Shown: piece after piece, positions 299-2,025 of the stretch
Layout of the letters: the number at the start of each line of letters is the position of its first letter
Numbering within the stretch: the stretch's first letter is position 1
IMG/VR virus record: IMGVR_UViG_3300014523_000031
Strand: one strand, 5' to 3'
DNA from: a virus
Lineage: Duplodnaviria > Heunggongvirae > Uroviricota > Caudoviricetes
Length of the DNA: 5,004 bases
Notes under the pieces: generated by a model
Told to the model about the DNA's origin: nothing
The model's database searches: none
The model's input: only the letters and a program-made list of their open reading frames with translations
Made by a program: the position numbers and the translations under genes

Positions 299-414
299 NN
301 NNNNNNNNNNNNNNNNNNNNNNNNNNNNNNNNNNNNNNNNNNNNNNNNNNNNNNNNNNNNNNNNNNNNNNNNNNNNNNNNNNNNNNNNNNNNNNNNNNNN
401 NNNNNNNNNNNNNN
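299..414. other. Assembly gap (116 consecutive N)
   Basis: Direct observation of an N run; true length and content unknown. Confidence 0.99.
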
Positions 415-441
415 CAGTGCAGTGTTTATTCTGTTGTTAGT

Positions 442-457
442 GCCAAAAATAAAGGCC
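442..457. repeat. 16-bp exact direct repeat gccaaaaataaaggcc, copy 1 (copy 2 at 968-983)
   Basis: Identical 16-mers at 442-457 and 968-983, each forming the U-tract and proximal stem of the terminator just 3' of a minus-strand accessory gene. Confidence 0.8.
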
Positions 458-470
458 GACTATGCGGCCT
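442..470 (-). terminator. Rho-independent terminator downstream of the 151-aa ORF
   Basis: On the minus strand: 6-bp GC-rich stem (plus 453-458 aggccg / 465-470 cggcct), 6-nt loop, then TTATTTTTGG (complement of plus 442-452). Sits 5 nt after the stop at 475. Confidence 0.6.
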
Positions 471-474
471 GAAA

Positions 475-930
475 TTACTTAACCAATGATGCTGCATATT
501 CGATAAGGTAAAGCTTTGGGGCCAGCCAAATTTTTAACCAAGTCATATTGGTTACTACACCAATAATAAAAAATCCCCACAGAGTCAAAACTCCAACCAA
601 TGGCATGATAAGAAGATTAATATCACCTTTGCTATCCCAAACCATTGTCGGCCTGTATTTGGGATTTCCTTTCTCCCATGAATATCCTTCATCACCGATT
701 TTACCTGTCTCAACTCTTTGGCACTGCTTCTTCATAAACCAGAAAACCAGTGGGATTGTTAGAATGGCGATGGCCATTAATGTTTTAATCAGACTGTCAA
801 CCATATTCCATAGCAGCAACTGATGAACAACATCAGGAATCTGTGCCTGGCTAAATGAAACAGCCGCGTCTATTCCATTACTGGCTTTTTGCAGTAGTTC
901 TACGAGAATCTTGTTTGCTTGTTCTTCCAT
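475..930 (-). CDS. Hypothetical small membrane protein, 151 aa, two predicted transmembrane segments; function unknown
   Basis: ATG 930 with AAGGTGA Shine-Dalgarno (complement of plus 934-940). Hydrophobic stretches LMAIAILTIPLVFWFM and LLIMPLVGVLTLWGFFIIGVV flank a charged loop. Has its own downstream terminator. The antisense ORF 548-823 looks compositionally junk-like. Confidence 0.75.
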   Translation of the reverse strand: MEEQANKILVELLQKASNGIDAAVSFSQAQIPDVVHQLLLWNMVDSLIKTLMAIAILTIPLVFWFMKKQCQRVETGKIGDEGYSWEKGNPKYRPTMVWDSKGDINLLIMPLVGVLTLWGFFIIGVVTNMTWLKIWLAPKLYLIEYAASLVK

Positions 931-970
931 ATATCACCTTGATTTTAATAAGCATGAAATTATTTACGGC
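921..970. repeat. About 50-bp imperfect direct repeat at the 5' boundary of the accessory genes, copy 1 (copy 2 at 1231-1280)
   Basis: Ungapped hand alignment of 921-970 against 1231-1280 gives 36 of 50 identical positions, in the same register relative to the two start codons (930 and 1240). Covers the first codons, the SD and about 40 nt upstream. Confidence 0.6.
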
Positions 971-999
971 CAAAAATAAAGGCCACCATCAGGCAGCCT
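968..999 (-). terminator. Probable rho-independent terminator downstream of the 83-aa ORF
   Basis: Minus-strand hairpin AAGGCUGCC-UGAU-GGUGGCCUU (9-bp stem with two G-U pairs) followed by UAUUUUUGG. Contains copy 2 of the 16-bp repeat and overlaps the stop codon at 989-991. Confidence 0.45.
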
Positions 1000-1240
1000 T
1001 GTTGTAAATGTTGCAGGTATCAAGTAAGTAATTAGATGGAGCGCCATAAATTATGAATTCATCGTTTGTCGGGTCCATCTCCATCTCTTGGCCTATTGCC
1101 ATTCTTGCGTCAGTGTCATCAGAGGCGAAGCATAAAACAGCCCACGCACCCATTGTTTTAAAAAGAACTGCAATTGGCTGTGGTTTTACTGAATTTGCGT
1201 TAGCGCGAAAATCACAAATCGCACTTTCATGAAATTCCAT
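989..1240 (-). CDS. Hypothetical soluble protein, 83 aa; function unknown
   Basis: ATG 1240 with GAGGTGAG Shine-Dalgarno (complement of plus 1244-1251). No hydrophobic segments. Sits between the tL1-like terminator and the 151-aa membrane protein gene. Confidence 0.65.
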   Translation of the reverse strand: MEFHESAICDFRANANSVKPQPIAVLFKTMGAWAVLCFASDDTDARMAIGQEMEMDPTNDEFIIYGAPSNYLLDTCNIYNKAA

Positions 1241-1280
1241 ATCTCACCTCAATCGTAATAAGCTGGAATTGATTTTCCGC
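1231..1280. repeat. Copy 2 of the 5'-boundary repeat (see 921-970)
   Basis: See copy 1; 36 of 50 identities by hand alignment. Confidence 0.6.
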
Positions 1281-1356
1281 GTTGCTTCTGGCGAGCAACA
1301 CAAGTCACACCCATTTCACTGCGTGGCTTGCTGTAATAAATTAGGTTAGTTCAGAC

Positions 1357-1379
1357 AATAAAAAACCCACCGAAGTGGG
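1357..1379 (-). terminator. Rho-independent terminator (tL1-like) in the leftward operon
   Basis: Minus-strand hairpin CCCAC-UUCG-GUGGG (plus 1366-1379) followed immediately by UUUUUUAUU (complement of plus 1357-1365). On the plus strand the T-run is displaced about 9 nt from the stem, so the minus orientation is favoured. Confidence 0.7.
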
Positions 1380-1435
1380 CTATGACCATTTTTTATTTGG
1401 ATTTCGTTGGTGAGCGTGATTAACAACTCTGTGCA

Positions 1436-1717
1436 TTACATCCTCATATTTTTCATCTTCAATTTTTCGACATTGCGAGGAAATGGTGTTGCTAATGCTT
1501 TGTCAACTTTGTCCATTGGTTCTTCATTAATCTTATATTCAGGACCGTCATCTATAGCATTAAATCCAGGTGTTACACCGTTTTTTAATGCATATGCTAT
1601 CCTTTTTTCCCATCTCGCTATTCTCCTCCTGTCTCGAGATGTAAGACCTCTATCAGATACTTTTCTGTTTTGTCCGCGGTCAGGATTAACATAAATAGTC
1701 TTTTTCACCATAAGCAT
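1436..1717 (-). CDS. Hypothetical basic protein, about 93 aa, immediately downstream of and coupled to N
   Basis: The ORF-track start at 1723 is a TTG codon. The first ATG (1717-1715) lies 2 nt after the N stop codon (1722-1720). Charged, arginine-rich composition (SRDRRRIARWEKR). Stop TAA 1436-1438. The antisense plus ORF 1407-1694 is low-complexity hydrophobic and rejected. Not recognised. Confidence 0.5.
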   Translation of the reverse strand: MLMVKKTIYVNPDRGQNRKVSDRGLTSRDRRRIARWEKRIAYALKNGVTPGFNAIDDGPEYKINEEPMDKVDKALATPFPRNVEKLKMKNMRM

Positions 1718-1719
1718 AC

Positions 1720-2025
1720 TCAATAAGCACCGTACGGTAGTTTACTGTACAATTTTATTTTTTGGACTGCATGTATTTTGTTTCCTAACGGGTTTGAATC
1801 TTTGTAATAAATACTTCTATTTTTTCGAACGACTTCTTCTTTCTTCTTGCAGCAAAGGCTTCCTAGTGATGCTGCTTTGTCTGCTCTGACGCAACCAGAG
1901 AGCTTTAGCGCAATTTTTCGCGCCAGTGCTTCATTACTGCGTCGATCGGCAATAAGTTCTGCTCTGCGAGCTTTGTAGCGGCTTTTTGCCGTACCTTTGG
2001 ATTCTTTCCAGACAATGGTTACCAT
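1720..2025 (-). CDS. N: Transcription antitermination protein N, phage-21-type arginine-rich motif
   Basis: Product MVTIVWKESKGTAKSRYKARRAELIADRR... carries the boxB-binding motif GTAKSRYKARRAELIA known from phage 21 N. AAGGAG Shine-Dalgarno 6 nt upstream of ATG 2025. The ORF-track start at 2055 adds 10 residues with no SD, so I place the start at 2025. Lies directly downstream of PL and nutL. Confidence 0.9.
   Translation of the reverse strand: MVTIVWKESKGTAKSRYKARRAELIADRRSNEALARKIALKLSGCVRADKAASLGSLCCKKKEEVVRKNRSIYYKDSNPLGNKIHAVQKIKLYSKLPYGAY

What the first reader, a model, noticed from the sequence alone, without database searches (positions are those of the whole stretch)
442..1280. 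Two tandem accessory gene cassettes with matching 5' and 3' boundary sequences
The 83-aa gene (989-1240) and the 151-aa membrane-protein gene (475-930) are each preceded by the same roughly 50-bp upstream/RBS/start segment (921-970 vs 1231-1280, 36 of 50 identical by hand). Each is followed by a terminator built on an identical 16-mer gccaaaaataaaggcc (442-457 and 968-983). This region also looks more AT-rich by eye than the replication module. They lie between tL1 and cIII, the slot where lambda and P22 carry ral/sieB-type exclusion genes, yet I recognise neither protein. Shared boundaries suggest modular acquisition or duplication of gene cassettes, possibly a two-component exclusion or lysogenic-conversion module. 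A possible internal promoter for the 151-aa gene (minus -35 TTGGCC at plus 967-972, -10 TATTAA at plus 945-950) is weak, because the predicted start would fall inside the SD.
Basis: partly seen in the sequence, partly recalled or inferred. Interest (0 to 1): 0.7.

Follow-up and report, generated by a model that had tools for sequence, protein, structure and literature searches.

The report
Swappable phage genes with shared boundaries
Two small genes of unknown function sit in the well-known variable "ral" slot of a lambda-like prophage, each bracketed by short conserved boundary sequences that many related phages use as joints for swapping different genes; this is a clear but ordinary example of known phage mosaicism.

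Summary
The upstream segments 925-970 and 1235-1280 match at 35 of 46 positions (best of 200 shuffles: 30). Both 16-mers are the 3' arm and U-run of terminator-like hairpins.

This is homology, not RBS or terminator convergence. The same boundaries flank at least ten unrelated genes in other lambdoid phages, including Ral, a 207-aa Nmad5-family protein and a 107-aa protein identical to "orf184" of Silas et al. Homology breakpoints fall exactly on the boundaries. The boundary upstream of the 83-aa gene is an orphaned 3' end of an N antiterminator gene. The linker before the 151-aa gene is a decayed copy of it.

Each repeat pair collapses to one copy in phages lacking that cassette: HF4s for the 83-aa gene, lambda and mEp234 for the 151-aa gene.

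The two genes are not a pair. They co-occur in 4 loci, against 16 and 29 loci in total. The 83-aa gene is an alternative to ral.

Both proteins remain unknown. Homologues were in a published accessory-gene screen, and neither paper's text mentions them. This is the known "Ral accessory region" with boundary-sequence mosaicism, so interest is low to moderate.

The parts
1720..2025 (-). N antiterminator, with a phage-21-type arginine-rich motif (101 aa). Its C-terminus has been replaced relative to phage 21 N.
   Evidence: PHROG 271. 306-nt N annotated in mEp235 at 99.5% DNA identity. Protein comparison.
1436..1723 (-). Nun-like transcription termination factor gene, frameshifted here. The A-run at 1463-1467 is one base shorter than in relatives. 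The intact form is 112 aa and runs to about 1383.
   Evidence: PHROG 5632. Alignment to mEp235 and E. coli SC418. Translations.
1356..1381 (-). Intrinsic-terminator-like hairpin and U-run after nun.
   Evidence: stem 1381-1364. -11 kcal/mol, z = -3.0.
1241..1335 (-). Orphaned 3' end of an Sf6/HF4s-type N gene (reads ..IYYSKPRSEMGVTCVARQKQRGKSIPAYYD*). Its TGA stop lies inside the Shine-Dalgarno sequence of the 83-aa gene. It contains 5' boundary copy 1 (1235-1280).
   Evidence: Translation compared with Sf6 and HF4s N C-termini. Homology to 66-70 of 129 loci at 1290-1345. HSPs to HF4s, Sf6, Gally and phage 21 N ends.
989..1240 (-). 83-aa acidic protein (pI 4.2, net charge -7), PHROG 2471, function unknown. 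It occupies the same slot position as ral.
   Evidence: Never co-occurs with ral. 98% identical to mEp234 gp34, which is orf60 of Silas et al..
969..1000 (-). Terminator-like element T1, with stem 1000-979 and a U-run. The 5' stem arm encodes the last codons (..KAA*) of the 83-aa gene. Includes 16-mer copy 2 (969-984).
   Evidence: Same element after ral in lambda, Sf6, N7 and CUS-3. Annotated as a rho-independent terminator in mEp234.
925..970 (-). 5' boundary copy 2. A non-coding linker with the Shine-Dalgarno sequence, ATG and GAA of the 151-aa gene. It is 76% identical to the N-gene 3' end at 1235-1280.
   Evidence: About 95% conserved across 7 phages whichever gene lies upstream.
475..930 (-). 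151-aa predicted two-pass membrane protein, PHROG 3054, function unknown. N- and C-termini are conserved and the centre is variable.
   Evidence: Internal mosaicism. A 121-aa variant is orf47 of Silas et al., with 2 TMHMM segments.
442..470 (-). Terminator-like element T2, with stem 470-453 and a U-run. Includes 16-mer copy 1 (442-457).
   Evidence: Follows six or more unrelated genes in other phages.
299..441 (-). Conserved block downstream of T2. 415-441 is readable and 299-414 is masked (N). In relatives this holds an inverted repeat plus a tL2A-type terminator, the stretch annotated 'bsq4; boundary sequence' in phage Sf6.
   Evidence: Sf6 annotation. Sequence of the equivalent stretch in E. 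coli BY63. 79 loci match both flanks. The content inside the window itself cannot be read.

Best explanation
The two genes are independent, interchangeable accessory genes in the hypervariable slot between N and cIII of a lambdoid early-left (PL) operon.

The matching boundaries are conserved linker sequences with two roles. The first role is expression signals:
- The 5' boundary is a translation-initiation region (..GAGGTGA(T/G)ATATGGAA) that descends from the 3' end of the N gene.
- The 3' boundary is a hairpin plus U-run terminator whose upstream arm can reach into the last codons of the cargo gene.

The second role is as short patches of homology shared by many lambdoid phages. Homologous recombination (phage Red, RecT or Erf, or host RecA) joins modules at these patches. 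Cargo genes are thereby swapped, gained or lost in register.

In this window each cassette is bracketed by a direct repeat of a boundary:
- N-tail/SD repeat around the 83-aa gene plus T1.
- 16-mer terminator repeat around the linker, the 151-aa gene and the T2 hairpin.

Unequal exchange at either repeat would add or remove exactly one cassette.

Shown here: the repeats, their homology across phages, the diversity of cargo, breakpoints lying on the boundaries, and natural one-copy variants. Inferred: that homologous recombination is the agent, that the hairpins terminate transcription and are read through by N-modified polymerase, and that both genes are expressed early after infection or induction rather than from the repressed prophage.

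Most likely protein roles (inference only): early-expressed host or defence-interaction factors. The 83-aa acidic protein may be an alternative to the anti-restriction protein Ral. The 151-aa protein acts at the inner membrane.
For: (1) Same boundaries, different cargo. A scan of IMG/VR for the 16-mer gave 120 loci. The gene ending just upstream of the 16-mer falls into at least 10 unrelated families:
- Ral: 59
- 151-aa family: 23
- 207-aa protein, annotated Nmad5 family in RefSeq: 17
- 83-aa: 11
- 107-aa: 6
- 156-aa: 3
- 62-aa: 2
- 55-, 60- and 210-aa: one each

With strict motifs (2 or fewer mismatches), six unrelated families carry both boundaries.

(2) The 5' motif is locus-specific and is not a general RBS. 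Of 148 hits in 1.25 Mb, 128 are followed by the 3' motif within 1.5 kb.

(3) Breakpoints lie on the boundaries.
- Against E. coli OZ197100, homology runs 415-1005 and 1243-2340 at 97-98.5%, with a ral block in place of the 83-aa gene.
- Against BY63 and mEp235, it runs 415-470 and 1286-2340 at 98-99.5%, with the 207-aa gene in place of both (annotations).
- The junction alignment shows about 95% identity from AACAAGGCTGCCTGA (..NKAA*) onward, whether ral or the 83-aa gene lies upstream.
- The number of loci sharing homology is 123 at 435-470, 90 at 965-1005 and 66-70 at 1290-1345. It is only 12-27 inside the 151-aa gene and 13-14 inside the 83-aa gene.

(4) The repeats collapse to one copy elsewhere.
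- HF4s 2005-2045 aligns to both 925-965 and 1235-1275 of the window. In HF4s, N is followed directly by the 151-aa gene.
- Single terminators in lambda and mEp234 align to both 415-463 and 960-1005.

(5) Window 1241-1335 encodes the C-terminus of an N protein.

(6) Combinatorial slot order across 135 loci.

(7) In E. coli, 1713 of 5426 complete genomes carry parts of 415-2330, but only 4 carry 80% or more of it.

(8) Literature.
[quoted passage not shown] 2001 and Susskind & Botstein 1978, as cited in PMC3029335).
- Sf6 and CUS-3 GenBank records annotate 'bsq; boundary sequence' features.
- A 'Ral' accessory region ranks second by score among the manually inspected accessory regions listed in Silas et al. 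(bioRxiv 10.1101/2023.04.06.535777, Supplementary File 2).
Against: - Ascertainment. The IMG/VR loci were chosen because they contain the 16-mer, so counts for the 3' boundary are partly by construction. Independent support comes from the BLAST hits in GenBank phages and E. coli genomes and from the co-located 5' motif.
- The relaxed 3' motif is not fully locus-specific. A lambda tR2-type terminator 2-7 kb away on the other strand matches it with 2 mismatches. Part of the similarity (GGCC followed by a T-run) is therefore generic terminator grammar.
- A 16-21-nt exact patch is short for efficient homologous recombination.
- The two 5' copies in this window are only 76% identical, so exchange between the copies within this genome would be rare.
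- Some relatives carry weakened hairpins. 156 of 207 instances keep a hairpin of -5 kcal/mol or better abutting the U-run.
- No recombination, termination or expression experiment is available.
- Protein functions are unknown. There are no Pfam, NCBIfam, PADLOC or PDB matches. Structure models are of low confidence.
Confidence: 0.8

Rival explanations
1. Ordinary convergence. The similar upstream segments are just strong ribosome-binding sites and the 16-mers are just terminator grammar, with no common descent and no role in exchange.
For: A different terminator (lambda tR2 type) elsewhere in these phages matches the 3' 15-mer within 2 mismatches. The SD-ATG core is functionally constrained.
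Against: - Similarity extends about 40 nt upstream of the Shine-Dalgarno sequence and exceeds every shuffle.
- The same linker is about 95% identical across phages with unrelated neighbouring genes.
- 128 of 148 hits of the 5' motif lie in this one locus.
- One copy is demonstrably the coding 3' end of N.
- Homology breakpoints coincide with the boundaries.
Confidence: 0.04
2. A two-component functional module, for exclusion or lysogenic conversion, in which the 83-aa and 151-aa proteins act together and were acquired together.
For: The two genes are adjacent and co-oriented here and in Gally, E. coli SC418 and ETEC1720. A membrane protein next to a small soluble protein is a plausible pair.
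Against: - They co-occur in 4 loci, against 16 and 29 loci in total. The 151-aa family pairs with ral in 14 loci.
- HF4s carries only the 151-aa gene, and mEp234, HK106 and about 100 Stx phages carry only the 83-aa gene.
- There is no promoter for prophage expression.
- There are no PADLOC hits.
- Homologues orf60 and orf47 are not mentioned in the text of the two papers from the Silas et al. screen. The experiment notes read (part 1 of the log) name other genes as superinfection-exclusion hits.
Confidence: 0.06
3. Site-specific cassette system. The hairpin boundaries would be recombination sites for a dedicated recombinase, as with integron attC sites.
For: Cassette-like anatomy, with a single gene followed by an imperfect hairpin. 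There are many alternative cargos at one locus, and direct repeats flank each cassette.
Against: - No integron-type integrase or other extra recombinase lies in the locus.
- Joint positions vary between cargos. Shared sequence starts at ..AACAAGGCTGCC.., at ..GGCCGCATAGTCGGCC.. or only at ..TCGGCCTTT... This fits homology-driven exchange rather than cleavage at a fixed site.
- The 5' boundary is a gene end plus RBS, not a hairpin.
Confidence: 0.03
4. Recent tandem duplication within this genome followed by divergence.
For: Direct repeats lie at both ends of each unit.
Against: The proteins are unrelated (best BLASTP E = 0.15 over 11 residues). Within-genome boundary identity (76%) is far below between-phage identity of the same boundary (about 95%). 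Each unit exists alone in other phages.
Confidence: 0.02

Closest known systems
Lambdoid 'boundary sequences' (bsq) of Clark et al. 2001 (HK620), also annotated in the phage Sf6 and CUS-3 GenBank records, and the linker idea of Susskind & Botstein 1978
   Same: Short sequences conserved among lambdoid phages at module boundaries and proposed as foci of homologous recombination that generate mosaicism. Sf6 bsq4 lies immediately downstream of the homologue of the 151-aa gene, which corresponds to the masked stretch of this window.
   Different: The two repeats found here are not themselves annotated as bsq in the records I could read. These are the N-tail/SD segment and the terminator 16-mer. 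Here they bracket single genes rather than large functional modules. I could not read the 2001 or 2004 papers, so overlap with their seven bsq is untested.
The 'Ral' accessory region of enterobacterial phages (Silas et al. 2023, bioRxiv 10.1101/2023.04.06.535777)
   Same: The same locus. It is a hotspot of variable accessory genes next to ral and ranks second by score among the regions listed. Their library included ral (orf87), the 107-aa cargo (orf184, which triggers the gop-beta-cII abortive-infection system), a near-identical 83-aa protein (orf60) and a 121-aa variant of the membrane protein (orf47).
   Different: That work defines the hotspot by gene content and does not discuss the boundaries. 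The word 'terminator' does not occur in the text. The text mentions neither orf47 nor orf60.
Morons (Juhala et al. 2000, HK97/HK022)
   Same: A single extra gene with its own terminator, inserted between genes of a lambdoid phage, slightly more AT-rich than its surroundings.
   Different: No promoter of its own was detected. The genes lie inside the PL operon on its strand, so expression from the repressed prophage, the hallmark of morons, is not expected.
Lambda ral / orf28 and its downstream terminator
   Same: The 83-aa gene uses the same start context as lambda orf28 (aaggtgatatATGGAA). It also has the same last four codons, stop and terminator as ral (..NKAA* then GGCCTTTATTTTTGGC), and it replaces ral in the slot.
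   Different: There is no sequence similarity to Ral apart from the shared terminal codons and no hit to the Ral Pfam family. Anti-restriction activity is untested.

Membership tests
Lambdoid boundary sequences (bsq) | Short sequence conserved among lambdoid phages while the adjacent sequence is unrelated | tested here: met
   Linker about 95% identical in 7 phages with either ral or the 83-aa gene upstream. Coverage profile.
Lambdoid boundary sequences (bsq) | Mosaic breakpoints coincide with the sequence | tested here: met
   HSP ends at about 470, 1005, 1243 and 1286 against E. coli OZ197100, BY63 and mEp235. End-point histogram.
Lambdoid boundary sequences (bsq) | Is one of the seven published bsq elements | tested here: inconclusive
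   Sf6 bsq4 (24156-24268) abuts but does not include the 16-mer. The HK620 record carries no bsq features. The original papers are not in the library.
Lambdoid boundary sequences (bsq) | Recombination actually occurs there | not testable with these tools
   Needs phage crosses or a population-scale recombination analysis.
Moron | Own promoter allowing expression from the repressed prophage | tested here: not met
   No promoter-like site upstream of either gene. The scan found 4 sites in 1-2400 against 4.6 expected, none at the proposed place. The proposed hexamers are not conserved.
Moron | Own terminator | tested here: met
   Terminator-like hairpins at 1000-979 and 470-453.
Integron-type gene cassette | Dedicated integrase and a fixed crossover point in an attC-like hairpin | tested here: not met
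   No such gene in the locus. Joint positions differ between cargos.
Ral (antirestriction, Pfam PF11058) | Sequence membership of the 83-aa protein | tested here: not met
   No Pfam or NCBIfam hit. Only the last four codons are shared, because they form the terminator stem.
SieB-type superinfection exclusion | Sequence similarity to SieB, and a gene on the opposite strand with its own promoter | tested here: not met
   Neither gene received a SieB or any other family assignment, with no Pfam, NCBIfam or PADLOC hit. No direct comparison to SieB was run. Both genes are on the PL strand, whereas lambda sieB is on the opposite strand.
Phage accessory region (hotspot) in the sense of Silas et al. 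| Highly variable gene content between conserved flanks in related phages | tested here: met
   78 gene orders in 135 loci, although some of that count comes from truncated loci. Only 4 of 1713 E. coli genomes with partial matches share 80% or more of the stretch.

The most novel reading that the evidence does not exclude
The boundaries might be more than passive homology. The nested direct repeats (an N-gene tail with start site, and a terminator half-site) could form a selected 'plug-and-play' cassette system. It would let lambdoid phages exchange single early genes at high frequency while keeping translation and termination in register. Separately, the 83-aa acidic protein (alternative to Ral) and the 151-aa membrane protein (variable centre between conserved ends) could be undescribed counter-defence or exclusion factors.
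Probability: 0.15. Interest if true: 0.6.

Novelty: new member of a known kind. Interest (0 to 1): 0.3.

Why it matters
It gives a clean, base-level example of how lambdoid phages shuffle single accessory genes. Each cassette is bracketed by a repeat that exists as a single copy in phages lacking that cassette. One of those repeats is the tail of the N gene.

This makes the old boundary-sequence hypothesis directly testable at a defined locus. It also marks the 83-aa and 151-aa proteins, and about ten alternative cargos, as candidates for early host- or defence-directed functions. The principle is already established and the locus is already recognised as a hotspot, so the gain is incremental.

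Tried and rejected
Protein function:
- Pfam, NCBIfam, PADLOC and PDB sequence searches gave nothing for either protein.
- PHROGs gave only families of unknown function.
- AlphaFold2 models were of low confidence, with pLDDT of 65.8 and 52.6.
- A Foldseek search of the 151-aa model against viral structures gave no match below E = 1. I ran no fold search on the weaker 83-aa model.
- A full-library profile search for the 83-aa family found only its own narrow family. The remaining hits were additive matches to giant repeat proteins (SprB, PKD), which I reject as spurious.

RNA: an Rfam scan of the whole window found nothing relevant.

Readings rejected:
- The two-component reading.
- Duplication of the genes.
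- An integron-like mechanism, because joint positions vary.

Literature:
- I looked for published phenotypes of the two proteins. Homologues were synthesised and screened by Silas et al., but neither is mentioned in the text of the two papers.
- I did not find per-gene fitness tables in the part of the supplement I read.
- The lambda GenBank records carry no terminator annotation for the hairpin after ral.
Full report
**Setting**

The window is the immunity and early region of a lambdoid prophage. On the minus strand, read in the direction of leftward (PL) transcription, the order is as follows.

| Feature | Coordinates | Notes |
|---|---|---|
| P22-C2-type repressor | 2340-2990 | |
| N antiterminator | 1720-2025 | Phage-21-type arginine-rich motif, 101 aa |
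| Nun-like gene | 1436-1723 | |
| Terminator-like hairpin | 1381-1364 | |
| 83-aa gene | 989-1240 | |
| 151-aa gene | 475-930 | |
| Masked run of N | 299-414 | |
| cIII | 74-244 | |

The plus strand carries cro, a cII/C1 homologue and replication genes.

**Checking the observation**

Both repeats are real and exceed chance.

- The upstream segments 925-970 and 1235-1280 form a 46-nt direct repeat with 35 matches. The best 46-mer pair in 200 dinucleotide-preserving shuffles averaged 26.2 matches and never exceeded 30.
- The 16-mer GCCAAAAATAAAGGCC occurs exactly twice, at 442-457 and 969-984. Chance expectation is 0.01.
- Each 16-mer is the 3' stem arm and U-run of a terminator-like hairpin on the minus strand, with folding energies of -13.9 and -9.7 kcal/mol. 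The other halves of the two hairpins differ.
- The region is modestly AT-rich, at 39-41% GC against 45-56% in the replication module.
- The suggested internal promoter matches 8 of 12 consensus positions, did not pass the scan and is not conserved in relatives.

**Same boundaries, different cargo**

A megablast of 415-1450 against GenBank phages found 220 records with parts of the stretch. Only one, phage Gally, had 80% or more of it. Reading nine annotated loci side by side showed the pattern.

The start context ..GAGGTGA(T/G)ATATGGAA precedes:

- the 83-aa gene;
- the 151-aa gene;
- lambda orf28, which overlaps ral;
- Sf6 gene 34;
- the other homologues of the two genes in mEp234, HK633 and APC_JM3.2.

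The end context (..NKAA)TGAtgGTGGCCTTTATTTTTGGC follows:

- the 83-aa gene;
- Ral in lambda, Sf6, N7 and CUS-3.

The gene ending just upstream belongs to at least ten unrelated families.

| Cargo family | Loci |
|---|---|
| Ral | 59 |
| 151-aa family | 23 |
| 207-aa protein (RefSeq: Nmad5 family) | 17 |
| 83-aa protein | 11 |
| 107-aa acidic protein | 6 |
| 156-aa protein | 3 |
| 62-aa protein | 2 |
| 55-, 60- and 210-aa proteins | 1 each |

With strict motifs, six unrelated families carry both boundaries. The 5' motif is not a general ribosome-binding site in these phages. Of 148 hits in 1.25 Mb, 128 are followed by the 3' motif within 1.5 kb.

One caution is that the loci were selected for the 16-mer, so counts for the 3' boundary are partly by construction. 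The BLAST results from GenBank and E. coli genomes and the co-located 5' motif are independent of that selection.

**Breakpoints**

Natural variants with the same backbone (same repressor, N and Nun at 97-99.5% identity) differ only between the boundaries.

| Relative | Homology to the window | Content between the boundaries |
|---|---|---|
| E. coli OZ197100 | 415-1005 and 1243-2340 | A ral block in place of the 83-aa gene |
| E. coli BY63 and phage mEp235 | 415-470 and 1286-2340 | The 207-aa gene in place of both |
| ETEC1720 | 415-540 and 820-2340 | Only the centre of the membrane protein exchanged |

The junction alignment is about 95% identical from AACAAGGCTGCCTGA onward, whether ral or the 83-aa gene lies upstream. 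It diverges completely before that point. The 83-aa protein and Ral share their last four residues (NKAA) only because those codons form the 5' arm of the terminator stem.

The number of loci sharing homology with the window varies sharply along the stretch:

- 123 at 435-470;
- 90 at 965-1005;
- 66-70 at 1290-1345;
- 12-27 inside the 151-aa gene;
- 13-14 inside the 83-aa gene.

**Origin of the 5' boundary**

Window 1241-1335 translates to ..IYYSKPRSEMGVTCVARQKQRGKSIPAYYD*. This is the C-terminus of the N proteins of Sf6 and HF4s. It is an orphaned N-gene tail whose stop codon lies inside the Shine-Dalgarno sequence of the next gene (TGAGGTGAGATATG). Relative to phage 21, the nun-plus-terminator block is an insertion inside N.

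The non-coding linker before the 151-aa gene is 76% identical to this tail, so it is best read as a decayed second copy.

**Each cassette is bracketed by a direct repeat**

The repeats collapse to one copy in phages that lack the cassette.

- HF4s has N followed directly by the 151-aa gene. Its positions 2005-2045 align to both window copies (925-965 and 1235-1275).
- Lambda and mEp234 have a single terminator that aligns to both 415-463 and 960-1005.

Unequal exchange at either repeat would therefore add or remove exactly one cassette, and the predicted products exist in nature.

**Independence of the two genes**

The two genes are not a pair.

- The 83-aa gene is in 16 of my loci and the 151-aa family is in 29. 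Both are present in only 4.
- The 151-aa family pairs with ral in 14 loci.
- The 83-aa gene and ral never co-occur.

Gene orders across 135 loci suggest positional slots: N - [Nun] - [Sf6 gene 36] - {ral | 83-aa | 107-aa | others} - {151-aa forms | 207-aa | 156-aa} - {ea10 | Sf6 gp33} - cIII.

In 5426 complete E. coli genomes, 1713 carry parts of 415-2330, but only 4 carry 80% or more of it.

**The proteins**

Neither protein matches Pfam, NCBIfam, PADLOC or PDB sequences.

The 151-aa protein:

- belongs to a family of more than 500 sequence clusters in Enterobacteriaceae, all unnamed;
- has a conserved N-terminal helix, two hydrophobic segments and a conserved C-terminus (..WLKIWLAPKLYLIEYAASL);
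- has a variable centre, with forms of 149-151, 141 and 121 aa.

The 83-aa protein:

- is acidic, with pI 4.2;
- belongs to a narrow family, with no remote relatives in a full-library profile search.

Structure models were too weak to use.

**Literature**

[quoted passage not shown] 2001 and Susskind & Botstein 1978, as cited in PMC3029335).
- GenBank records of Sf6 and CUS-3 annotate 'bsq' features. Sf6 bsq4 lies next to the homologue of the 151-aa gene. It corresponds to the masked part of this window.
- A 'Ral' accessory region ranks second by score among the manually inspected accessory regions listed by Silas et al..
- Their library contained ral (orf87) and the 107-aa cargo (orf184, which triggers the gop-beta-cII abortive-infection system). 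It also contained a 98%-identical 83-aa protein (orf60) and the 121-aa membrane variant (orf47).
- Neither orf47 nor orf60 appears in the text of that preprint or of the follow-up paper PMC12373910. This is weak negative evidence against an exclusion phenotype.

**Verdict**

However, it is an instance of a known phenomenon at a known hotspot.

The best explanation is that the boundaries are conserved expression signals that also serve as homology patches for exchange of single accessory genes.

- The 5' boundary is an N-gene tail with a start site.
- The 3' boundary is half of a terminator.

The two-component, exclusion, lysogenic-conversion and internal-promoter ideas are not supported. The role of homologous recombination, the function of the terminators, early expression and the protein functions are all inferred rather than shown.

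Noticed in passing
window 1436-1723 (-), frameshift at 1463-1467: The Nun-like gene is frameshifted. An A-run is one base shorter than in mEp235 and E. coli SC418, so the ORF ends at 95 aa instead of 112 aa and loses the C-terminal ..HQRNPNKKWS. This could be a pseudogene or a homopolymer sequencing error.
   Followed up: yes
window 1241-1335 (-) and 1348-1802: An orphaned 3' end of an Sf6/HF4s-type N gene lies downstream of nun. Relative to phage 21, the nun-plus-terminator block is an insertion inside N that gave the resident N a different C-terminus (..KDSNPLGNKIHAVQKIKLYSKLPYGAY). The same arrangement is annotated in phages mEp235 and mEpX1.
   Followed up: partly
window 299-414 (run of N): The masked stretch cannot be read. 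In relatives with the same flanks it holds an inverted repeat (tgtgtattcattccaacgagtgaataca) and a tL2A-type terminator. That is the 113-nt stretch annotated 'bsq4; boundary sequence' in phage Sf6. Relatives have 125 nt there against 116 masked positions.
   Followed up: partly
window 475-930 (-): The 151-aa gene is itself mosaic. Codons 1-38 and 128-151 are shared by about 26 loci, and the centre with both hydrophobic segments by about 12. Forms of 149-151, 141 and 121 aa exist. The window copy has two extra residues (MA, 52-53) compared with the 149-aa homologues.
   Followed up: partly
L132 846-1469, L134 835-1458, L007 1531-2154: A 207-aa gene is a frequent alternative cargo in the same slot. 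RefSeq names it 'Nmad5 family putative nucleotide modification protein' and one phage record names it 'Smchd1'. It uses the same 3' boundary but a different start context.
   Followed up: no
L025, L112 and four other IMG/VR loci: A 107-aa acidic cargo with both boundaries belongs to the same family as orf184 of Silas et al. (near-identical sequence), which they report triggers the gop-beta-cII abortive-infection system of P4-like satellites.
   Followed up: partly
44 of the IMG/VR loci, 2-7 kb from the slot on the other strand: A lambda tR2-type terminator (GGTAATCGCAGGCCTTTTTATTTGGGGG) matches the 3' boundary 15-mer with two mismatches. The relaxed motif is therefore not specific to this locus.
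   Followed up: yes
L004 (phage HK633) 1560-2235: HK633 annotates a 129-aa ORF that begins like the 83-aa gene and runs into the start of the membrane-protein gene. A 121-aa membrane-protein ORF overlaps it. This looks like a frameshift, a fusion or an annotation problem in that record.
   Followed up: no
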